DNA from: a virus
Lineage: Duplodnaviria > Heunggongvirae > Uroviricota > Caudoviricetes
Virus record (IMG/VR): IMGVR_UViG_2585427735_000011
Direction: 5' to 3' (one strand)
DNA: 12,870 nucleotides
This document shows, one piece after another, positions 16-9,177 of the stretch. The translations under genes were made by a program, and so were the position numbers. The notes below the pieces were generated by a model. That model searched no databases. It was not told where the DNA came from and saw nothing but the letters and a program-made list of their open reading frames with translations. Every line of letters starts with the position of its first letter. The first letter of the stretch is position 1.

Positions 16-519
16 TTATTGATAGTGTTTTATGTTCAGATAATGCCCGATGACTTTGTCATGCAGCTCCACCGATTTTGAGAACGACAGCGACTTCCGT
101 CCCAGCCGTGCCAGGTGCTGCCTCAGATTCAGGTTATGCCGCTCAATTCGCTGCGTATATCGCTTGCTGATTACGTGCAGCTTTCCCTTCAGGCGGGATT
201 CATACAGCGGCCAGCCATCCGTCATCCATATCACCACGTCAAAGGGTGACAGCAGGCTCATAAGACGCCCCAGCGTCGCCATAGTGCGTTCACCGAATAC
301 GTGCGCAACAACCGTCTTCCGGAGCCTGTCATACGCGTAAAACAGCCAGCGCTGGCGCGATTTAGCCCCGACGTAGCCCCACTGTTCGTCCATTTCCGCG
401 CAGACGATGACGTCACTGCCCGGCTGTATGCGCGAGGTTACCGACTGCGGCCTGAGTTTTTTAAATGGCGGAAAATCGTGTTGAGGCCAACGCCCATAAT
501 GCGGGCGGTTGCCCGGCAT
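16..519 (-). CDS. insB: IS1 transposase InsB reading frame (expressed as InsAB' fusion via -1 frameshift)
   Basis: 167-aa [28 protein letters not shown]...HYLNIKHYQ matches IS1 InsB as I recall it; overlaps insA in the -1 frame. Confidence 0.9.
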
Positions 520-1484: not shown

Positions 1485-2177
1485 TTATCCATGTTTCCTG
1501 TATGTTTGCGGCATGCTCCCAATAACTTTCCCGAAGATAAACACCCGGTTCATCTCGTCTTTCTCGATTGGGTCCCACGGTGAGTAGCTCTTGTTATCAG
1601 AGATAACCAGCAGTTTATCCTTCATCATTTGCAGGCGCTTAACATGGGCTGTGTCGTCATACAGAAACGCATAGATACCATCACCGTCGAAAGATTTAAC
1701 AGTGATATCAACGAACAGAAGATCACCTGGTTCGATCGTTCCTGACATGCTGTCACCGCGTACGTTAATGATGCGGATATTTTCTGCCTTCCTGCCATCG
1801 AACATGTGACGAGCATCGTCAAACGAGTACTCAACCGAGCGTAGAACTTCTACAAACTCACGGTTGATGACTCCCGGCCCGGCACTCACTTCTATATCAA
1901 GAACGTCAATCTTGAAGTATTTGGGATGGTTGGCAGCAGGCTTCCCTGATTGTTGACCGTCATTTCTCATCGGGCCTATGCCTGATGAGAGCCACTCTGT
2001 TCGAACACCCAATGCATTAGCTATTTCAACAATTTTTGTTGAGCCGCGTGCGTTGCCGCTTGTCAGTCTCCAGATTGTGGGTTGAGCTACGCCAGACGCC
2101 TTTGCAAGAGCGCCTTGAGACATTCCAGATTGTTCCATCGCTAGGTTTAAGCGATCAGCAAGAGTTTCTTTTTTCAT
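1485..2177 (-). CDS. cI: Phage CI-type repressor (N-terminal HTH, C-terminal S24 LexA-like autopeptidase domain)
   Basis: HTH-like segment QGALAKASGVAQPTIWRLTSG; S24 motifs GDSM (in NVRGDSMSGTIEPGDLLFVD) and HVKRL lysine. Start taken at ATG 2177 (MKKETLADRL...); the track's 1485..2213 ORF uses an upstream TTG. No Shine-Dalgarno precedes the ATG, consistent with a leaderless PRM-type transcript. Confidence 0.85.
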   Translation of the reverse strand: MKKETLADRLNLAMEQSGMSQGALAKASGVAQPTIWRLTSGNARGSTKIVEIANALGVRTEWLSSGIGPMRNDGQQSGKPAANHPKYFKIDVLDIEVSAGPGVINREFVEVLRSVEYSFDDARHMFDGRKAENIRIINVRGDSMSGTIEPGDLLFVDITVKSFDGDGIYAFLYDDTAHVKRLQMMKDKLLVISDNKSYSPWDPIEKDEMNRVFIFGKVIGSMPQTYRKHG

Positions 2178-2287
2178 AAGTTTTAATTTATACGCTTGCG
2201 TATTGATGGTCAAAACACGTTTTGCTATTGATTGGGTTAATACGCATTGCTATTATCCATTCATTGTAATACCAATAGGAATTGATA
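2178..2287. promoter_or_regulatory. Divergent cI/cro promoter-operator region (PRM/PR-like) with candidate operator inverted repeats
   Basis: 110-bp gap between divergent repressor and cro starts. Inverted repeats TACGCttGCGTA (2191-2202) and AAAACacGTTTT (2212-2223), plus a further TACGCATTGC element at about 2241-2250. Exact operator and promoter hexamers not resolved. Confidence 0.5.
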
Positions 2288-2515: not shown

Positions 2516-2545
2516 ACTGCGGCGTTAACTGATAAGGCAATGATT

Positions 2546-3085
2546 ATGCAACCACTTACATACCAACAGACTAGCGGATTTAGCCCGACTGCGGTGATAA
2601 ATCGTTCTCAAATAAAACAGGTGCCAGGCCACGAAAAAATCCGTGATGCCGTTCGCGCCTGGTCGGCTGCAGATAATCAGGATGTTGTTGCCGCACTCAT
2701 TGTGAATGAGTATCGGGAGCAGGGCGGCGGCACCATCGATTTCCCTGATGATGTCAGCCGTGCACGCCAGAAGCTGTTCCGCTTCCTCGATAACAAATTC
2801 GATTCTGAAAAATACCGAAATAACGTGCGTGAACTGACCCCGGCAATTCTGGCGGTACTACCGCTGGAATATCGCGGCCACCTGGTTGAGCAGGATAGCT
2901 TCATGGCTCCGCTGGCTGAAATGGAAAAGGAACTCTGTGAGGCAAAGCAGGCGGTCATTCTCAACGCACCACGCCACCAGAAACTGAAGGAGATGAGTGA
3001 AGGCATTGTGTCGATGTTTCGAGTGGACCCGGATCTGGCTGGTCCATTGATGGCGATGGTCACCACCATGCTGGGGGCAATATGA
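2546..3085 (+). CDS. CII-position regulatory protein (possibly Phage_CP76 / YdaT-like family)
   Basis: 179-aa ORF directly after cro and before O, the cII position. Start chosen at ATG 2546 (better RBS spacing than 2540). Family assignment is from memory and uncertain. Confidence 0.55.
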   Translation: MQPLTYQQTSGFSPTAVINRSQIKQVPGHEKIRDAVRAWSAADNQDVVAALIVNEYREQGGGTIDFPDDVSRARQKLFRFLDNKFDSEKYRNNVRELTPAILAVLPLEYRGHLVEQDSFMAPLAEMEKELCEAKQAVILNAPRHQKLKEMSEGIVSMFRVDPDLAGPLMAMVTTMLGAI

Positions 3086-3171
3086 CAGGTTCAAAAATGG
3101 CGAAAGTCGGTCTGCGGGAACAGAACCGACTTTCAGGTGCAAATCGTAACACACTCATTGCGGGAGGAATT

Positions 3172-4101
3172 ATGGCAAACACTGCTGAGATATTCAATTT
3201 TCCAGTGCCGGATGCGGCACAAAAGGAGCCGCGCGTGGCAGATCTCGATGATGGTTATACGCGCATTGCAAATGAGTTGCTGGAAGCTGTGATGCTGGCC
3301 GGATTAACACAGCACCAGCTTCTGGTCTTCCTGGCTGTCATGCGCAAAACATATGGCTTTAATAAAAAACTGGATTGGGTGAGCAACGAGCAACTGTCCG
3401 GATTGACCGGGATATTACCGCACAAGTGTTCTGCTGCAAAAAGTGTTCTGGTAAAGCGTGGGATTTTGATTCAGAGCGGGCGGAATATCGGTATTAATAA
3501 TGTGGTCAGTGAATGGTCAACATTACCCGAATCAGGTAAGAAAAATAAAGTTTACCTGAAAGAGGTAAATTTACCTGAATCAGGTAAGAAAAGTTTACCC
3601 AAATCAGGTAAAGGCGTTTACCCGAATCAGGTAAACACAAAAGACAAACTAACAAAAGACAATATAAAACCTTTTTCGTCCGAGAATTCTGGCGAATCCT
3701 CTGACCAACCAGAAAACGATCTTCCTGTGGTGAAACCAGATGCTGCAATTCAGAGCGGCAGCAAGTGGGGGACAGCAGAAGACCTGACCGCCGCAGAGTG
3801 GATGTTTGACATGGTGAAGACCATCGCACCATCAGCCAGAAAACCGAATTTTGCAGGGTGGGCTAACGATATCCGCCTGATGCGTGAACGTGACGGACGT
3901 AACCACCGCGACATGTGCGTGCTTTTCCGCTGGGCATGCCAGGACAACTTCTGGTCCGGTAACGTGCTAAGTCCGGCCAAACTCCGCGACAAGTGGACCC
4001 AACTCGAAATCAACCGTAACAAGCAACAGGCAGGCATGATAGCCAGCAAACCAAAACTCGACCTGACAAACACTGACTGGATTTACGGGGTGGATTTATG
4101 A
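3172..4101 (+). CDS. O: Replication initiator protein O (hybrid: non-lambda N-terminal iteron-binding domain, lambda-like C-terminal P-interaction domain)
   Basis: N-terminus MANTAEIFNFPVPD...VADLDDGYTRIANELLEA resembles lambda O (MTNTAKILNF...VADLDDGYARL); C-terminus ...DLTAAEWMFDMVKTIAPSARKPNFAGWANDIRLMRERDGRNHRDMCVLFRWACQDNFWSGNVLSPAKLRDKWTQLEINRNKQQAG...DLTNTDWIYGVDL matches the lambda O C-terminal domain as I recall it. GGGAGG RBS before ATG 3172; the track's 3082 start is an upstream in-frame extension overlapping the previous gene. Confidence 0.85.
   Translation: MANTAEIFNFPVPDAAQKEPRVADLDDGYTRIANELLEAVMLAGLTQHQLLVFLAVMRKTYGFNKKLDWVSNEQLSGLTGILPHKCSAAKSVLVKRGILIQSGRNIGINNVVSEWSTLPESGKKNKVYLKEVNLPESGKKSLPKSGKGVYPNQVNTKDKLTKDNIKPFSSENSGESSDQPENDLPVVKPDAAIQSGSKWGTAEDLTAAEWMFDMVKTIAPSARKPNFAGWANDIRLMRERDGRNHRDMCVLFRWACQDNFWSGNVLSPAKLRDKWTQLEINRNKQQAGMIASKPKLDLTNTDWIYGVDL
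3523..3634. repeat. Replication origin iterons inside O (five 17-bp dyad-symmetric repeats TTACCnnAnnnAGGTAA), followed by an AT-rich region
   Basis: Directly visible: TTACCCGAATCAGGTAA (3523-3539), TTACCTGAAAGAGGTAA (3552-3568), TTACCTGAATCAGGTAA (3571-3587), TTACCCAAATCAGGTAA (3595-3611), TTACCCGAATCAGGTAA (3618-3634), then A-rich ACACAAAAGACAAACTAACAAAAGACAATATAAAACC. Same architecture as ori-lambda within O. Confidence 0.75.
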
Positions 4102-4799
4102 AAAACATCGCCGCACAGATGGTTAACTTTGACCGTGAGCAGATGCGCCGGATCGCCAACAACATGCCGGAACAGTACGACGAAAAGCCGCAGGTACAAC
4201 AGGTAGCGCAGATCATCAATGGTGTGTTCAGCCAGTTACTGGCAACTTTCCCGGCGAGCCTGGCTAACCGTGACCAGAATGAACTGAACGAAATCCGCCG
4301 CCAGTGGGTGCTGGCTTTCCGGGAAAACGGGATCACCACAATGGAACAGGTTAACGCTGGAATGCGCGTAGCCCGTCGGCAGAATCGACCATTCCTGCCA
4401 TCACCCGGGCAGTTTGTCGCCTGGTGCCGGGAAGAAGCATCCGTTACCGCCGGGCTGCCAAACGCCAGCGAGCTGGTTGATATGGTTTACGAGTATTGCC
4501 GGAAGCGCGGGCTGTATCCGGATGCAGAGTCTTATCCGTGGAAATCAAACGCGCACTACTGGCTGGTTACCAACCTGTATCAGAACATGCGGGCCAATGC
4601 GTTGACTGACGCGGAATTACGGCGCAAGGCTGCCGATGAACTGTCCTGTATGACCGCACGAATTAACCGTGGTGAGGCTATACCTGAACCAGTAAAACAA
4701 CTTCCTGTCATGGGCGGTAGACCTCTAAATCGTGCACAGGCTCTGGCGAAGATCGCAGAAATCAAAGCTAAGTTTGGGCTGAAAGGAGCAAGGGTATGA
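4098..4799 (+). CDS. P: Replication protein P (DnaB helicase loader), near-identical to phage lambda P
   Basis: 233 aa, MKNIAAQMVNFDREQMRRIANNMPEQYDEKPQVQQVAQIINGVFSQLL...AKFGLKGARV matches lambda P as I recall it with only a few substitutions; ATGA overlap with the O stop. Confidence 0.9.
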   Translation: MKNIAAQMVNFDREQMRRIANNMPEQYDEKPQVQQVAQIINGVFSQLLATFPASLANRDQNELNEIRRQWVLAFRENGITTMEQVNAGMRVARRQNRPFLPSPGQFVAWCREEASVTAGLPNASELVDMVYEYCRKRGLYPDAESYPWKSNAHYWLVTNLYQNMRANALTDAELRRKAADELSCMTARINRGEAIPEPVKQLPVMGGRPLNRAQALAKIAEIKAKFGLKGARV

Positions 4800-5098: not shown

Positions 5099-5115
5099 TG
5101 AAACAGGTGAGTTGA

Positions 5116-5150
5116 GTTCAAACTGTAGTACAATTCTCTCCAGTTTGAAC
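5116..5150. promoter_or_regulatory. Perfect 10-bp inverted repeat (GTTCAAACTG ... CAGTTTGAAC, 15-nt spacer) just upstream of the emrE RBS
   Basis: Directly visible at 5116-5125 and 5141-5150; ends 1 nt before AGGAAAG (5151-5157) and 16 nt before the emrE ATG. Could be an operator, a leader RNA hairpin or a ren terminator lacking a U-tract. Confidence 0.35.
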
Positions 5151-5165
5151 AGGAAAGAATATTCT

Positions 5166-5498
5166 ATGAACCCTTATATTTATCTTGGTGGTGCAATACT
5201 TGCAGAGGTCATTGGTACAACCTTAATGAAGTTTTCAGAAGGTTTTACACGGTTATGGCCATCTGTTGGTACAATTATTTGTTATTGTGCATCATTCTGG
5301 TTATTAGCTCAGACGCTGGCTTATATTCCTACAGGGATTGCTTATGCTATCTGGTCAGGAGTCGGTATTGTCCTGATTAGCTTACTGTCATGGGGACTTT
5401 TCGGCCAACGGCTGGACCTGCCAGCCATTATAGGCATGATGTTGATTTGTGCCGGTGTGTTGGTTATTAATTTATTGTCACGAAGCACACCACATTAA
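5166..5498 (+). CDS. emrE: Small multidrug resistance (SMR) efflux transporter EmrE
   Basis: 110 aa from MNPYIYLGGAILAEVIGTTLMKFSEGFTRLWPSVGTIICYCASFWLLAQTLAYIPTGIAYAIWSGVGIVLISLLSWG...NLLSRSTPH, essentially the E. coli EmrE sequence as I recall it; four predicted TM helices. The track ORF starts at an upstream in-frame ATG (5112); 5166 has the RBS. Confidence 0.9.
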   Translation: MNPYIYLGGAILAEVIGTTLMKFSEGFTRLWPSVGTIICYCASFWLLAQTLAYIPTGIAYAIWSGVGIVLISLLSWGLFGQRLDLPAIIGMMLICAGVLVINLLSRSTPH

Positions 5499-5528
5499 AA
5501 ATAATTTGTTTCTAAACGACTAAAATAT

Positions 5529-5562
5529 GGAGGCTCTTATATTTATATGAGCCTCGTTTTAT
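5529..5562 (+). terminator. Rho-independent terminator after emrE
   Basis: Stem GAGGCTC (5530-5536) / GAGCCTC (5549-5555) with a 12-nt AT loop, followed by GTTTT. Confidence 0.6.
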
Positions 5563-5754
5563 GCTTTTTGTTAATGTCTTTATTTTTTTATGTATTCTTT
5601 TGTGCTTTCAAGATTATGGCGTAAGAAAATTGCAATACGATTATTGTTGTATATTCAAGATAATGTGACCTTAATTGTCTTTTTAAATAAAAATTAAACA
5701 AAAATTATATCCCACCACTAAGGTTTATAAAAGCATACGTTAGCAGGTGTCACC

Positions 5755-7281
5755 ATGAAAAAAGCCATAGCATATATGCGATTTTCATCACCAGGTCAGA
5801 TGTCTGGCGACTCATTAAACCGACAGAGAAGACTTATTGCTGAATGGTTAAAGGTAAATAGTGATTATTATCTTGATACCATAACATATGAAGATTTAGG
5901 ATTAAGTGCATTCAAAGGAAAGCATGCACAATCAGGAGCTTTTTCGGAATTTTTAGATGCTATAGAGCATGGTTATATATTGCCAGGAACTACATTGTTA
6001 GTTGAAAGTCTGGACAGACTTTCAAGAGAAAAAGTCGGTGAAGCGATTGAACGTCTGAAATTGATTTTGAATCACGGTATTGATGTTATAACTCTTTGCG
6101 ACAATACAGTCTATAATATTGACTCTTTGAATGAGCCATATTCATTAATAAAAGCCATACTTATAGCACAAAGGGCAAATGAAGAAAGCGAGATAAAGTC
6201 AAGTCGGGTTAAATTATCATGGAAGAAAAAACGGCAGGATGCACTGGAATCAGGTACGATTATGACGGCGTCTTGTCCGAGATGGCTCTCCTTAGATGAC
6301 AAAAGAACGGCTTTTGTTCCAGACCCCGACAGGGTGAAAACTATTGAGCTAATTTTTAAACTCAGGATGGAAAGGCGCTCATTGAATGCAATAGCCAAGT
6401 ATTTAAATGATCATGCTGTAAAGAATTTCTCAGGAAAAGAAAGTGCATGGGGACCTTCTGTAATTGAAAAATTATTAGCGAATAAAGCTCTGATAGGTAT
6501 ATGCGTACCTTCATATCGTGCAAGAGGTAAAGGAATAAGTGAAATCGCTGGCTATTATCCCAGAGTCATATCAGATGATTTGTTTTACGCTGTACAGGAA
6601 ATTCGGTTGGCACCTTTTGGTATTAGCAATAGTAGCAAAAATCCTATGTTGATAAATCTACTTCGAACAGTTATGAAGTGCGAGGCTTGTGGTAATACCA
6701 TGATTGTTCATGCGGTATCTGGAAGTTTGCATGGCTATTATGTTTGTCCGATGAGAAGACTGCATCGATGTGACAGGCCATCAATAAAGAGAGATTTGGT
6801 TGATTATAATATCATTAATGAGTTGCTTTTTAATTGTAGTAAAATCCAACCAGTTGAAAACAAGAAAGATGCTAATGAAACTTTAGAGTTGAAAATTATT
6901 GAGCTCCAGATGAAAATTAATAATTTAATTGCTGCATTATCTGTTGCGCCTGAAGTTACCGCTATAGCAGAAAAAATCAGAGTATTAGATAAGGAATTAC
7001 GAAGGGCTTCTGTATCATTAAAAACTTTGAAGAGTAAAGCGGTGAGTTCACTTGGTGATTTTCATGCTATTGACTTAACCAGTAAAAATGGGCGAGAGCT
7101 ATGTCGTACACTTGCCTATAAAACATTCGAAAAAATCATAATCAATACAGATAATAAAACCTGTGATATCTATTTTATGAATGGCATTGTTTTTAAACAC
7201 TATCCTTTAATGAAAACAATATCCGCCCAGCAGGCGATAAGTACTCTCAAATATATGGTTGATGGTGAGGTTTATTTTTGA
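5755..7281 (+). CDS. ybcK: Large serine recombinase (DLP12 YbcK-like)
   Basis: 508 aa; N-terminal resolvase catalytic motif AYMRFSSPGQ (Y-x-R-x-S-x-x-x-Q); Cys-rich zinc-ribbon-like segment CEACGNT...YYVCPMRRLHRCD; C-terminal coiled-coil-like region. AGGTG RBS before ATG 5755. AT-rich relative to the neighbouring replication genes. Confidence 0.85.
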   Translation: MKKAIAYMRFSSPGQMSGDSLNRQRRLIAEWLKVNSDYYLDTITYEDLGLSAFKGKHAQSGAFSEFLDAIEHGYILPGTTLLVESLDRLSREKVGEAIERLKLILNHGIDVITLCDNTVYNIDSLNEPYSLIKAILIAQRANEESEIKSSRVKLSWKKKRQDALESGTIMTASCPRWLSLDDKRTAFVPDPDRVKTIELIFKLRMERRSLNAIAKYLNDHAVKNFSGKESAWGPSVIEKLLANKALIGICVPSYRARGKGISEIAGYYPRVISDDLFYAVQEIRLAPFGISNSSKNPMLINLLRTVMKCEACGNTMIVHAVSGSLHGYYVCPMRRLHRCDRPSIKRDLVDYNIINELLFNCSKIQPVENKKDANETLELKIIELQMKINNLIAALSVAPEVTAIAEKIRVLDKELRRASVSLKTLKSKAVSSLGDFHAIDLTSKNGRELCRTLAYKTFEKIIINTDNKTCDIYFMNGIVFKHYPLMKTISAQQAISTLKYMVDGEVYF

Positions 7282-7392: not shown

Positions 7393-7716
7393 ATGGATGC
7401 TGGCGTTCTCGTTCTAGCAGTTCAACAATACCCAATCACAAAACAATTCACTGATAACGAACTTTGCACACTCGCCTGGTTATGGCGAGCAGGGAATGTG
7501 ATGTTAATTACCTACCAGAACGTTACTCCTCTTCTTCAGGTTGCGGAGCATCGTGAAGCTGGTCGCTTCACTTCTATCGAGCAAGAATATCCCCAGATAC
7601 TCAATAAGGCACAGGCAATCCTTGCCAGAGAAACGGCACATGTAAAATTCCGGCCGTGGCAGGATGATAAGTGGAGTCGAGTTTTGCCGCATTTACGTTC
7701 GGATCGATTACAGTAG
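7393..7716 (+). CDS. Hypothetical protein (107 aa); coding status uncertain
   Basis: ORF MDAGVLVLAVQQYPITKQFTDNELCTLAWLWRAGN...; weak RBS; overlapped by two minus-strand ORFs of similar length. No family recognised. Confidence 0.3.
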   Translation: MDAGVLVLAVQQYPITKQFTDNELCTLAWLWRAGNVMLITYQNVTPLLQVAEHREAGRFTSIEQEYPQILNKAQAILARETAHVKFRPWQDDKWSRVLPHLRSDRLQ

Positions 7717-8177
7717 ATTCCAATTAACAATGAGAAACACATAGCCACCCCGTGGTATTGAAACCATATAATGTTGGATTTGAAAACAGATCTTTTTCCA
7801 TGTATTAATAATTACATCCCCGCGAGTGATTCAAAAAGGAGGGCCCAATTTTGTCCGAGTTTTTGTATTCCCCCGCATGCCGCTGCGGAGCACTACATCT
7901 GAGTGTCTGACTAGGGGATAAAATTAGACTGGATAGTGAGAAGAAAGTGGCGTGCTAGGCTGTGCCGAGTGCTACCAGTACACCCTGGGGGGGTGCAGCT
8001 TTCGCCGAGACTGTAGTGGGTATCGGTTAATGCACGAAAAACCGAGAGGTCAGACAACCAATTTGCCGTAGGATTGTTTCCGGTGCGATACCGGTGTACT
8101 AACTGAAAGCAATGCGAAAAAGCATAAACTCGGTCCTTCAGTCGCCCTACACACTATTTACTAAGAAGGGCTAAAGC
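7717..8177. other. 461-bp ORF-free, relatively GC-rich, stem-rich stretch: candidate structured ncRNA or long 5' leader of the downstream ORF
   Basis: No ORF of 60 aa or more on either strand; by hand scan, + strand stop codons occur in all three frames at intervals of at most about 48 codons. Local stems include CACCC-tgggg-GGGTG (7981-7995), CCGGT-gcgat-ACCGG (8080-8094) and long-range complementarity AGTACACC (7977-7984) / GGTGTACT (8093-8100). Not matched to any RNA family I know. Confidence 0.3.
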
Positions 8178-8534
8178 ATGGATACAATTATCACATGGAT
8201 GGGAGATCGTCTGTTGGGGTGGATAACAAACAAATCCGATCTGCGGCAGAGGGCAATCACTGGATTAACTCCTGCGATTTATTCAACAATTTTATATACT
8301 GAAAAATTAAAACGTGGTGAGTCTAATAACCCAAACGAAGAAGAAAAACTTTATAGGCTTTGGTATGAAGCGTCTTCCCAAGTCGTAGACTTTGATCGAG
8401 AGCTGGCTAAAAGATGTTTAGATAAATCAGAATATTGGCTTCATTCTGAATTATATAGCCCTGAGAAAGTTGGAGAGCTAAACATTTCTTTGGTTGGTAT
8501 GAAGGCAACGCTTGAAGGAATAAAGCACAATTAA
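8178..8534 (+). CDS. Hypothetical protein (118 aa), AT-rich orphan ORF
   Basis: MDTIITWMGDRLLGWITNKSDLRQRAITGL...; AAGGG 7 nt upstream of the ATG; no signal peptide or TM segment evident; no family recognised. Confidence 0.5.
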   Translation: MDTIITWMGDRLLGWITNKSDLRQRAITGLTPAIYSTILYTEKLKRGESNNPNEEEKLYRLWYEASSQVVDFDRELAKRCLDKSEYWLHSELYSPEKVGELNISLVGMKATLEGIKHN

Positions 8535-8721
8535 AACCTTTGATTTGCGATAATCAACTCGCCATAATCATGTCATCGGAGCCTGAACAACTCCGGTGAC
8601 TTCTGCGCTAAACGGGGACGTTTATGCGCACACACAATCCAAACTCTCTTCTCCCTCCACAGATGCAGAAATGCACCTGCGATATATTGTATCCAGCGTT
8701 TGACCTCTGCGGAGGTGAAGC

Positions 8722-9177
8722 GTGAATCTCCCACAAGATGGCATCAAATTACATCGCGGTAACTTCACCGCTATCGGTCGGCAGATCCAGCCTTATCTGG
8801 AGGAGGGCAAATGCTTTCGCATGGTGCTTAAACCGTGGCGTGAGAAACGCAGTCTTTCCCAGAATGCACTCAGCCACATGTGGTACAGCGAAATCAGTGA
8901 ATACCTCATCAGCAGCGGTAAAACGTTCGCTACTCCAGCTTGGGTAAAAGATGCTCTCAAACACACATATCTCGGTTATGAAACCAAAGACCTGGTTGAT
9001 GTCGTAACCGGTGATATCACCACTATCCAGTCGTTACGCCATACCTCCGATCTTGATACCGGAGAGATGTATGTCTTCCTGTGTAAGGTTGAAGCCTGGG
9101 CGGTGAATATTGGCTGCCACCTGACTATTCCGCAGAGCTGCGAGTTCCAGCTGCTCCGCGACAAGCAGGAGGCGTAA
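8722..9177 (+). CDS. ybcN: YbcN-like protein (DLP12 prophage protein, reported DNA base-flipping activity)
   Basis: 151 aa, GTG start, [45 protein letters not shown]... matches E. coli YbcN as I recall it. Confidence 0.8.

What the first reader, a model, noticed from the sequence alone, without database searches (positions are those of the whole stretch)
8178..8534. AT-rich 118-aa orphan ORF with a long upstream leader
Its composition differs from the neighbouring nin genes, and it has a plausible RBS, no recognisable domain, and no signal peptide or TM segment. Small orphan proteins in variable prophage slots are often superinfection-exclusion, abortive-infection or anti-defence factors. The preceding ORF-free stretch might regulate it or be a partner RNA.
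Basis: partly seen in the sequence, partly recalled or inferred. Interest (0 to 1): 0.5.

Follow-up and report, generated by a model that had tools for sequence, protein, structure and literature searches.

The report
Orphan gene behind a new structured RNA
The 118-aa ORF is a real but dispensable prophage accessory gene, and its "leader" looks like a previously undescribed ~330-nt structured RNA that stays constant in enterobacterial lambdoid prophages while the gene behind it is swapped.

Summary
There is an ATG ORF at 8178-8534 (118 aa, 37.8% GC against ~50% flanks, no Pfam, PADLOC or TM hit) behind a 461-nt ORF-free stretch, in a DLP12-like prophage.

The ORF is a true gene (dN/dS 0.06-0.24) with a generic four-helix-bundle fold. 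It belongs to an uncharacterised family of 352 clusters, whose domain is sometimes the N-terminus of TIR- or TM-bearing proteins. It is dispensable. About 37% of E. coli carriers hold a 134-bp deletion allele, and other lineages have unrelated genes in its place.

The more interesting feature is the "leader". Window ~7816-8146 is a conserved module (74-100% identity, ~100 loci, E. coli, Klebsiella, Enterobacter and Obesumbacterium prophages) with no Rfam match.
- 97.8% of cells pair, against 34-43% in slid controls.
- 16 pairs show compensatory changes.
- A 6-bp loop-loop pairing occurs in three covarying versions.

The module diverges far less than the synonymous sites next door. It usually ends in an intrinsic terminator and is followed by at least five unrelated orphan cargos, or none. 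In ORF118 lineages the terminator is missing.

The functions of the RNA and of ORF118 are unproven, and no expression data were available.

The parts
7760..7815 (+). 5' flank of the conserved module. Homology between lineages begins here, right after the stop codons of unrelated upstream genes. It contains a -35-like TTGAAA (7780-7785) and a -10-like TATTAA/ATTAAT (7803-7809), separated by a spacer that varies in sequence.
   Evidence: Alignments. The hexamers are conserved in position, but the -10 lacks the canonical A at position 2, and the consensus scanner calls no promoter. The promoter is therefore uncertain.
7816..8146 (+). Core of the candidate structured RNA (~331 nt), running from AUCCCCGCGAG to CAGUCGCC.
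   Evidence: 32 distinct sequences (A3). In the hand-curated structure 97.8% of cells pair, against 34-43% in slid controls, and 16 pairs have changes on both sides, against 1-7. The + strand pairs at 97.8%, against 87.5% if the minus strand were folded. No Rfam hit at E<=10. No coding signal in any of six frames.
7881..7905 (+). Hairpin (stem 7881-7889 / 7898-7905) whose loop carries CACUAC (7891-7896), the 5' arm of the loop-loop pairing.
   Evidence: helices 5 and 6.
8004..8027 (+). Hairpin (stem 8004-8012 / 8019-8027, 4 covarying pairs) whose loop GUAGUG (8013-8018) is the 3' arm of the loop-loop pairing. Versions seen: CACUAC/GUAGUG, CGCAAC/GUUGCG, CACCAC/GUGGUG.
   Evidence: helices 6 and 12. 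Stems of 6 bp or more with at least 2 covarying pairs: 2 in the real alignment, mean 0.17 in 100 column shuffles.
7943..8003 (+). Helix 7943-7951 / 7995-8003 (4 covarying pairs), enclosing hairpin 7953-7971 (2 covarying pairs).
   Evidence: helices 8-10.
7927..8143 (+). Long-range closing helix GACUGG (7927-7932) / UCAGUC (8138-8143) of the 3' domain. Inner helix 8041-8046 / 8129-8134, and the invariant hairpin AUGC-GAAAAA-GCAU (8112-8125).
   Evidence: helices 7, 13 and 18.
8147..8177 (+). Spacer between the RNA and the ORF, with the Shine-Dalgarno-like AAGAAGGG (8163-8170). There is no terminator here. Most non-ORF118 lineages carry ACCGCC-loop-GGCGGU-U7-8 at this position.
   Evidence: 3' ends side by side. 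Terminator calls in L065 and L057. None found in the window.
8178..8534 (+). ORF118, a four-helix-bundle accessory protein (phrog_12412). It carries the family motif LWxEAS..(F/Y)D..LA..C..K..YW.
8360..8504 (+). Two 11-bp direct repeats TTGGTATGAAG (8360-8370 and 8494-8504). Deletion between them (134 bp) gives the common truncated 66-aa allele ending ...LWYEGNA*.
8539..8600 (+). Right junction of the cargo slot. From here the sequence is shared with hundreds of other DLP12-type prophages that lack both the RNA and ORF118.
   Evidence: (about 350 genomes match only query positions ~840-901).

Best explanation
The locus has two separable units in the early-right (P-to-ninB) region of a DLP12-like lambdoid prophage.

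(1) Window ~7816-8146 (+) encodes a ~330-nt structured RNA of a family not in Rfam. It folds into a multi-helix architecture that includes a 6-bp loop-loop (kissing) interaction. It is the conserved, selected element. In most lineages it is closed by an intrinsic terminator within about 10 nt of its last helix.

(2) Immediately 3' of it lies a cargo slot (8147-8538) in which unrelated small orphan genes are exchanged. ORF118 is one such cargo. It is a genuine, purifying-selected but dispensable four-helix-bundle protein. In the ORF118 lineages the terminator is absent, so the ORF is read as the 3' extension of the RNA-containing transcript.

Shown here: conservation, covariation, strand, modularity, cargo swapping, coding selection, and ORF decay.

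Inferred, at lower confidence (~0.35): ORF118 acts in phage-host or phage-phage conflict as an adaptor or decoy for effectors that carry the same N-terminal domain. The RNA acts as an RNA in its own right, not as an ORF118-specific partner.

Unknown: the biochemical function of the RNA.
For: RNA: the leader is present in 159 of 5426 complete E. coli genomes, with 80% or more coverage in 157 of them. It is also in two cultured coliphages at 99% and two Klebsiella phages at 77.5%, in about 70 IMG/VR loci and 22 metagenome loci, and in Obesumbacterium and Enterobacter prophages. There is no Rfam match, no tRNA and no coding signal (pN/pS 0.70-0.88 in all six frames). The element differs by about 20% between lineages whose adjacent ORF118 copies have pS 0.65-0.79. 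In the deletion allele the RNA is ~98% identical to the window, while the ORF remnant is ~92%.

Modularity: at least 5 cargo types, or none, follow a fixed junction after CAGUCGCC. Elements 97% identical carry different cargo: L061 and L086 against L073 and L076.

ORF: dN/dS 0.06-0.24. AF2 four-helix bundle, pLDDT 78.5. 352 family clusters. A TIR fusion (P0072) sits next to GmrSD, and P0051 has a PDC-S60-like C-terminus. Stand-alone members lie in prophage variable regions.
Confidence: 0.7

Rival explanations
1. RNA-sensor cassette. The structured RNA is a cis-acting leader (riboswitch- or attenuator-like sensor). It keeps a downstream, exchangeable and possibly toxic effector (2-TM protein, Rx4H protein, ORF118) silent through the terminator or through RBS occlusion. 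It releases the effector on a signal such as infection or induction, so the locus would be a defence or exclusion module with a constant RNA and variable effectors.
For: A constant module with swappable downstream genes is the architecture of many defence systems. In the 2-TM lineages only about 20 nt separate the terminator from the cargo RBS, so the cargo can only be transcribed by read-through. One cargo has N- and C-terminal TM helices and a distant homologue that UniRef names a SLATT 2TM effector. The ORF118 domain is fused to TIR elsewhere. An alternative long-range pairing, 7855-7865 / 8123-8133, competes with helix 8041-8046 / 8129-8134.
Against: No alternative terminator/antiterminator pairing with covariation was found. 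ORF118 lineages have no terminator at all. L057 has the RNA and its terminator with no cargo before a standard DUF1367 gene. At 330 nt it exceeds known aptamers. No cargo hits PADLOC, and the two cargo families put through the family or structure searches matched neither SLATT models (2-TM cargo) nor HEPN structures (176-aa cargo). No toxicity data exist.
Confidence: 0.15
2. One reading: the stretch is a dedicated 5' leader or partner RNA of ORF118. They would form a two-component unit, such as an RNA antitoxin or regulator with its protein, as in type III TA systems.
For: In every lineage where ORF118 is 69% or more identical, the RNA lies directly upstream with no terminator between them. 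In E. coli the two co-occur almost perfectly, in 160 against 159 genomes.
Against: The same RNA (97% identical) precedes an unrelated 2-TM gene, other cargos, or none. ORF118 relatives at 50% identity or less lack it. ORF118 is truncated in about 37% of E. coli carriers while the RNA is kept. There are no tandem repeats, and no ToxN/CptN/TenpN-like toxin.
Confidence: 0.07
3. Processive-antitermination RNA (put- or EAR-like). The nascent RNA would modify RNA polymerase so that it reads through the nin-region terminators towards Q.
For: The position is right: downstream of the replication genes and upstream of the nin genes and Q, where lambda has tR2-tR4 (own knowledge). A terminator follows the element directly.
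Against: It is about five times larger than put and has no similarity to any Rfam antitermination RNA. Most DLP12-type prophages with the same nin genes and Q lack it. A strong terminator immediately after it fits a discrete RNA product better.
Confidence: 0.05
4. Not an RNA. The stretch would be conserved as double-stranded DNA (a regulatory region, recombination site or linker for module exchange) or as a decayed gene.
For: It sits exactly at mosaic junctions. A minus-strand frame is open in 2 lineages.
Against: Compensatory changes appear in 16 pairs, and G-U to G-C/A-U changes fit only the + strand. There is no codon periodicity (47/50/56 variable columns per phase), and pN/pS is 0.7-0.9 in all frames.
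Confidence: 0.05

Closest known systems
Type III toxin-antitoxin loci (ToxIN, CptIN, TenpIN)
   Same: The order is RNA gene, then intrinsic terminator, then a co-oriented protein gene whose expression needs read-through. The context is mobile-element or phage-conflict.
   Different: The RNA here is one non-repetitive ~330-nt fold, with no tandem repeats. The cargo proteins are unrelated to ToxN-type endoRNases. The cargo changes while the RNA stays constant. The ORF118 lineages lack the terminator.
Large 'ornate' bacterial and phage RNAs of unknown function (ROOL, GOLLD, OLE, raiA; PMC12286853, PMC5737381)
   Same: A large, highly structured RNA, carried by prophages, with loop-loop contacts and no known function.
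   Different: No Rfam model matches even at E<=10. It is about half their size and restricted to Enterobacterales lambdoid prophages. Whether the kissing loop forms within or between molecules is unknown.
Retrons and other defence systems with a constant core and variable effectors
   Same: A constant non-coding RNA module sits next to exchangeable small effector-like genes, including a 2-TM protein.
   Different: No reverse transcriptase or any other constant protein lies next to the RNA. No PADLOC hit.
PHROG phrog_12412 / phrog_8527 (function unknown)
   Same: ORF118 matches phrog_12412 over its full length (E 1e-70). The 66-aa truncated allele corresponds to phrog_8527.
   Different: The PHROG entries carry no functional annotation, and the link to the upstream RNA is not recorded there.
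The ybcK-ybcN slot of E. coli K-12 prophage DLP12 (ybcL, ybcM, ylcH; own knowledge of the K-12 map)
   Same: The chromosomal prophage and flanks are the same: emrE-ybcK on the left and ybcN-ninE-ybcO-rusA-ylcG-quuD-porin on the right.
   Different: Other DLP12 variants carry different genes in the slot and have neither the RNA nor ORF118.
N-terminal helical domain of TIR- or TM-bearing single-gene defence candidates
   Same: They share the motif LWxEAS..D..LA..C..K..W, with profile E-values of 1e-9 to 1e-10. P0072 has a TIR_2 domain and sits beside GmrSD.
   Different: ORF118 is the domain alone, with no effector part. The role of the domain (sensor, oligomeriser or adaptor) is unknown.

Membership tests
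Any Rfam 15 RNA family | Covariance-model match to the family | tested here: not met
   Whole window at E<=1: only a chance rliD hit elsewhere. Window 7740-8200 at E<=10: zero hits. No tRNA or tmRNA.
Structured non-coding RNA gene (generic) | Base pairs conserved through compensatory changes on one strand | tested here: met
   97.8% paired against 34-43% slid, 16 double-change pairs against 1-7, 0 of 500 shuffles reach the observed value; column-shuffle control; strand asymmetry.
Structured non-coding RNA gene (generic) | Defined transcript ends (promoter or processing site, and a terminator) | tested here: inconclusive
   An intrinsic terminator follows the last helix in most non-ORF118 lineages, but not in the window. 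The upstream -35/-10-like hexamers are conserved in position but are not called by the scanner.
Structured non-coding RNA gene (generic) | The RNA is actually made | not testable with these tools
   No transcriptome data were available.
Type III toxin-antitoxin | Antitoxin RNA made of tandem direct repeats | tested here: not met
   TRF at minimum score 30 finds nothing in 7600-8700. Only short two-copy repeats are present.
Type III toxin-antitoxin | Toxin of the ToxN/CptN/TenpN (AbiQ-like) endoRNase families | tested here: not met
   ORF118 and the other cargos have no Pfam or PADLOC hit. ORF118 is a four-helix bundle.
Type III toxin-antitoxin | Terminator between the RNA and the toxin gene | tested here: not met
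   Absent in the window and in all ORF118 lineages. Present in other cargo lineages.
Riboswitch / transcription attenuator | Expression platform whose terminator or RBS competes with the aptamer fold | tested here: inconclusive
   The terminator lies within about 10 nt of the closing helix in several lineages. One competing long-range pairing exists (I8), but without covariation. No ligand is known.
Retron | Reverse transcriptase gene adjacent to the ncRNA | tested here: not met
   No RT gene in the window or in related loci.
PHROG phrog_12412 | Full-length HMM match | tested here: met
   E 9.9e-71, residues 1-118 against profile positions 1-118 of 118.
HEPN RNase (for ORF118) | Conserved Rx4-6H motif | tested here: not met
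   No invariant Rx4-6H in the A4 alignment. HEPN chains appear only at Foldseek E>1.
Membrane exclusion proteins (SieB/Imm/SLATT-like) for ORF118 | Transmembrane helices | tested here: not met
   Maximum 19-aa hydropathy is 0.68. The AF2 model is a soluble helical bundle.
   Only context is available: a TIR fusion relative in a defence island and prophage variable slots.

The most novel reading that the evidence does not exclude
The ~330-nt RNA is a new functional RNA class in E. coli and Klebsiella prophages. In one version it is a protein-free RNA sensor that gates exchangeable effector genes (2-TM protein, Rx4H protein, ORF118-type adaptor), giving an RNA-triggered exclusion or defence cassette. 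In the other it is a self-assembling 'ornate' RNA whose complementary loops pair between molecules, as in ROOL and GOLLD, but in a genetically tractable host and in cultured phages (IdasGreatGrand, Turner).
Probability: 0.2. Interest if true: 0.85.

Novelty: categorically new. Interest (0 to 1): 0.68.

Why it matters
E. coli and its lambdoid prophages are among the most closely studied genomes. A large structured RNA family there, with tertiary-type covariation and no database match, would be an unexpected gap in the catalogue. It also sits at a fixed junction where orphan genes are exchanged. That gives a handle on how accessory genes are slotted into phage genomes and expressed, through terminator read-through or direct fusion to the RNA. 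The system is directly testable. Two cultured coliphages and many sequenced strains carry it. Natural variants already exist: an ORF deletion allele, an IS insertion upstream, terminator-plus and terminator-minus forms, and different cargos. For ORF118 itself, the link to an N-terminal domain of TIR- and TM-bearing proteins gives the first concrete hypothesis for a family of more than 350 clusters of unknown function.

Tried and rejected
1. Known RNA families: the Rfam scans were negative, and ARAGORN found nothing.
2. Tandem-repeat antitoxin: none found.
3. Hidden protein gene in the leader: rejected.
4. Species-representative genomes: two pattern scans found no true copy (the single cyanobacterial hit was not confirmed by nhmmer). 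The element is therefore rare and strain-level.
5. Plasmids: no match.
6. Literature: full-text searches for sequence strings from the element and for lambdoid or prophage structured RNAs found nothing relevant.
8. HEPN idea for the 176-aa cargo (invariant RLRHNLLH): the AF2 model is good (pLDDT 86), but Foldseek against the PDB finds no HEPN match. It remains only a lead.
9. SLATT idea for the 2-TM cargo: the only support is the UniRef name of a homologue at 38% identity. No Pfam or NCBIfam SLATT model hit any of 22 family members.
10. Sigma-70 promoter upstream of the RNA: not called by the scanner.
11. A full-length covariance model was not built, because 340 columns would very probably exceed the calibration limit, which is forecast at 4-8 min for only 190 positions. 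nhmmer profiles were used instead.
12. Single-sequence thermodynamics is not informative (z = -1.3).

Full report
CONTEXT. The window is a DLP12-like defective lambdoid prophage of E. coli. Its layout is:
- IS1 transposase fragment, 16-519 (-)
- cI-type S24 repressor, 1485-2213 (-)
- cro-like ORF
- YdaT-domain ORF, 2540-3085
- O, 3082-4101
- P, 4098-4799
- a 100-aa ORF
- emrE
- the large serine recombinase ybcK, 5755-7281
- a 107-aa antirepressor/Roi C-terminal fragment, 7393-7716 (PF10548)
- a 461-nt gap
- the 118-aa ORF
- ybcN (NinB-like), ninE, ybcO, rusA, ylcG and quuD
- an OmpC-family porin on the minus strand
.

OBSERVATION. The ORF is at 8178-8534 with an ATG start and an AAGAAGGG Shine-Dalgarno-like stretch 7 nt upstream. 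Its GC is 37.8%, against 50-52% for the RNA core and the nin genes. It has no Pfam, PADLOC or meaningful NCBIfam hit and no hydrophobic segment. RefSeq annotates it as a hypothetical protein.

IS THE ORF A GENE? Orthologues at 69-78% aa identity in Obesumbacterium, Enterobacter and other prophages are all exactly 118 aa. They give dN/dS 0.06-0.24, with synonymous sites saturated (pS 0.65-0.79). It is therefore a real, constrained protein.

The ORF is not strictly an orphan. It matches phrog_12412 (E 1e-70). A profile search of 1.84 billion representatives finds 352 clusters at E<=1e-3. They share the motif LWxEAS..(F/Y)D..LA..C..K..(Y/G)W.

Most members are stand-alone proteins of 120-135 aa in prophage variable regions. 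Some lie next to the integrase, after a theta/HolE-like gene. Others lie in a nin region before dinI. Roughly one in seven of the listed hits is longer.
- P0072 carries the domain N-terminal to a TIR_2 domain and lies next to a GmrSD type IV restriction gene.
- P0051 has a C-terminus matching PADLOC candidate PDC-S60.
- P0073, P0117 and P0163 continue into hydrophobic, TM-like stretches (read directly from the sequences).

This context is compatible with a conflict-system adaptor, sensor or decoy, but nothing more is shown.

THE ORF IS DISPENSABLE. Of 160 complete E. coli genomes with ORF DNA, 96 hold it at 80% or more of its length and 99% or more identity. About 59 hold a 66%-coverage allele at ~92% identity. 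That allele encodes a 66-aa stump (WP_000379696.1, corresponding to phrog_8527) or is not annotated at all. It arises from a 134-bp deletion between two 11-bp direct repeats, TTGGTATGAAG at 8360 and 8494. The deletion shifts the frame to ...LWYEGNA*.

THE 'LEADER' IS THE CONSERVED UNIT. The 461-nt stretch is present in 159 of the 5426 genomes, at 80% or more coverage in 157 of them, and at ~98% identity in the deletion-allele genomes. It is 99% identical in coliphages Turner and IdasGreatGrand. A ~355-nt core is 77.5% identical in two Klebsiella phages and 83% identical in E. coli 3426, where the downstream genes are different.

Exact-pattern scans added about 70 IMG/VR loci and 22 metagenome loci. 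None of 185,579 species-representative genomes has it. The family is therefore rare, strain-level and confined to Enterobacterales prophages. Identity between lineages is 74-88%.

Long invariant blocks alternate with variable segments. No reading frame is open in all lineages. Variable columns show no codon phase (47/50/56), and pN/pS is 0.70-0.88 in all six frames. The element differs by only ~20% between lineages whose adjoining ORF118 copies are saturated at synonymous sites.

STRUCTURE. RNAalifold predicts 71-85 pairs, of which 12-14 have compensatory changes. An energy-free scan for stacked compatible columns recovered helix 7943-7948 / 7998-8003, with three covarying pairs. It also recovered a 6-bp pairing between the loops of two independently supported hairpins, 7891-7896 with 8013-8018. 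That pairing exists as CACUAC/GUAGUG, CGCAAC/GUUGCG and CACCAC/GUGGUG.

Stems of 6 bp or more with at least two covarying pairs number 2 in the real alignment, against a mean of 0.17 in 100 column shuffles that keep the phylogeny. Stems of 6 bp or more number 29, against 6.2.

For the curated model (18 helices, 90 pairs, 32 distinct sequences):

| Measure | Model | Control |
|---|---|---|
| Cells forming standard pairs | 97.8% | 34-43% (3' partners slid 1-3 columns) |
| Pairs changed on both sides | 16 | 1-7 |
| Cells changed on both sides | 110 | 2-23 |
| Covariation score | 0.201 | 0.03-0.05 |
| Shuffles reaching the observed value | 0 of 500 | - |

G-U cells make up 10.7% of the total. Folding the other strand would pair only 87.5% of cells, so the + strand, the sense of the operon, is the folded one.

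Caveats:
- There are only about six lineages.
- Part of the model was derived from the same alignment.
- The 5' domain (7816-7919) has two equally compatible topologies, because its UCCCC, GGAGGG, UCCCCC and GGGGAU strands never vary.
- L064, the most divergent copy, breaks two kissing-loop pairs.
- The single-sequence MFE z-score is only -1.3.

Rfam 15 has no match even at E<=10 on the isolated region. Searches of the literature library found no description.

ENDS OF THE MODULE. Homology between lineages starts about 55 nt before the first helix, directly after the stop codons of unrelated upstream genes. This flank holds TTGAAA-type and (T/A)TTAAT-type hexamers 17-18 nt apart, with a spacer that varies freely. 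The -10 lacks the canonical A at position 2, and the scanner calls no promoter. An own promoter is therefore possible but unproven, and the RNA could instead be cut out of the pR transcript.

At the 3' end, all lineages share ...CAGUCGCC and then diverge abruptly. Most non-ORF118 lineages continue with a canonical terminator, ACCGCC-loop-GGCGGU-U7-8 (tool calls in L065 and L057). The four ORF118 lineages have about 30 nt with an RBS instead, and no terminator.

CARGO SLOT. Behind the junction come one of the following:
1. ORF118.
2. A 176/183-aa helical protein with an invariant IIRLRHNLLHANKYE.
3. A 178-aa protein with N- and C-terminal TM helices.
4. A 93-aa plus 162-aa pair.
5. A 177-aa protein.
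6. Nothing before a standard DUF1367 nin gene (L057).

None of the cargos hits Pfam or PADLOC. Elements that are 97% identical carry ORF118 (L073, L076) or the 2-TM gene (L061, L086), so swapping is recent. In the 2-TM lineages only about 20 nt separate the terminator from the RBS, so the cargo must be transcribed by read-through. The right junction is at about 8539. From there the sequence is common to hundreds of DLP12-type prophages that lack the RNA and ORF118.

Two leads on cargo function did not hold up under test. The Rx4H protein has a confident AF2 model but no HEPN match in Foldseek. The 2-TM family has one distant member that UniRef names a SLATT 2TM effector, but 22 members gave no Pfam or NCBIfam SLATT hit.

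RELATION BETWEEN THE RNA AND ORF118. In every lineage where ORF118 is 69% or more identical, the RNA lies directly upstream without a terminator. Relatives at 50% identity or less lack the RNA, and the RNA occurs without ORF118. The association is therefore lineage-specific linkage with co-transcription, not an obligate pair.

INTERPRETATION. Best supported (about 0.7): a structured RNA module followed by a swap slot for accessory genes, with ORF118 as one cargo.

The conflict-related role of ORF118 (adaptor or decoy of TIR- or TM-bearing proteins with the same domain) is an inference from domain fusions and context (about 0.35).

Rivals, none of them excluded:
- An RNA sensor or leader gating variable effectors (0.15).
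- An ORF-specific partner RNA or type III-like TA (0.07).
- A put/EAR-like antitermination RNA (0.05).
- A DNA-level element or decayed gene (0.05).

None of these can be settled without transcript mapping, probing and genetics. The cultured phages IdasGreatGrand and Turner carry both parts, so these experiments are practical.

VERDICT. The ORF alone is an ordinary accessory gene of unknown function. The upstream stretch is a strong candidate for a new structured RNA family in E. coli and Klebsiella prophages, and it is the reason for the score.

Noticed in passing
window 16-519 (-): An IS1 transposase fragment (PF03400, E 2e-78) sits at the left edge and truncates the prophage left arm next to the immunity region.
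   Followed up: partly
window 5112-7281: An AT-rich emrE - ylcJ remnant - ybcK (large serine recombinase: Resolvase + Recombinase + Zn-ribbon) block lies between the ren-like ORF and a 107-aa Roi/antirepressor C-terminal fragment (7393-7716). Phage IdasGreatGrand lacks the block and has a 203-aa ORF ending at the same point (L002 3931-4539). The block looks like an insertion that truncated the antirepressor-like gene.
   Followed up: partly
window 8360-8370 and 8494-8504: An exact 11-bp direct repeat inside ORF118 explains the widespread 134-bp deletion allele (66-aa product), seen in about 59 of 160 E. coli carriers.
   Followed up: yes
window 7855-7865 / 8123-8133: An 11-nt long-range complementarity (CCGAGUUUUUG / CAUAAACUCGG) competes with the covariation-supported helix 8041-8046 / 8129-8134. 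It could be an alternative conformer. It shows no covariation, and the L071-type change G to C at 7857 disrupts it.
   Followed up: partly
window 7905-7911 / 8049-8055: The invariant GUCUGAC is perfectly complementary to the invariant GUCAGAC. This could be a pseudoknot, but it cannot be tested by covariation because neither strand varies.
   Followed up: no
L006 4416-4967, L081, L088, L091, L093: The cargo behind the same RNA in Klebsiella phages and prophages is a 176/183-aa all-helical protein with an invariant IIRLRHNLLHANKYE (Rx4H-like). The AF2 model has pLDDT 86, but there is no Foldseek PDB match. The family is small and confined to Enterobacterales (15 clusters).
   Followed up: partly
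L065 9489-, L086, L066, L056, L061, L063, L090: Here the cargo is a 178-aa protein with N- and C-terminal TM helices and invariant TKENKTSEFRQxWIxELR and EWKRVKRGE motifs. It has 148 homologue clusters across Proteobacteria. One homologue at 38% identity is named a SLATT 2TM effector by UniRef, but no SLATT HMM hit was obtained here.
   Followed up: partly
L004 2745-3958: An IS3-family element is inserted immediately 5' of the TTGAAA hexamer upstream of the RNA. In L067 the sequence upstream of the -10-like ATTAAT is replaced altogether. These are natural variants that could test whether the RNA has its own promoter.
   Followed up: no
L103 3093-5930: A distant ORF118-family member fused to a TIR_2 domain (P0072) lies directly downstream of a GmrSD type IV restriction gene in a metagenomic contig. 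This is a defence-island-like setting.
   Followed up: partly
window 8624-8725: A 33-aa ORF overlapping the ybcN start is annotated in RefSeq (WP_072130332.1, in the position of ylcH). It lies in the stretch shared with all DLP12-type prophages.
   Followed up: no
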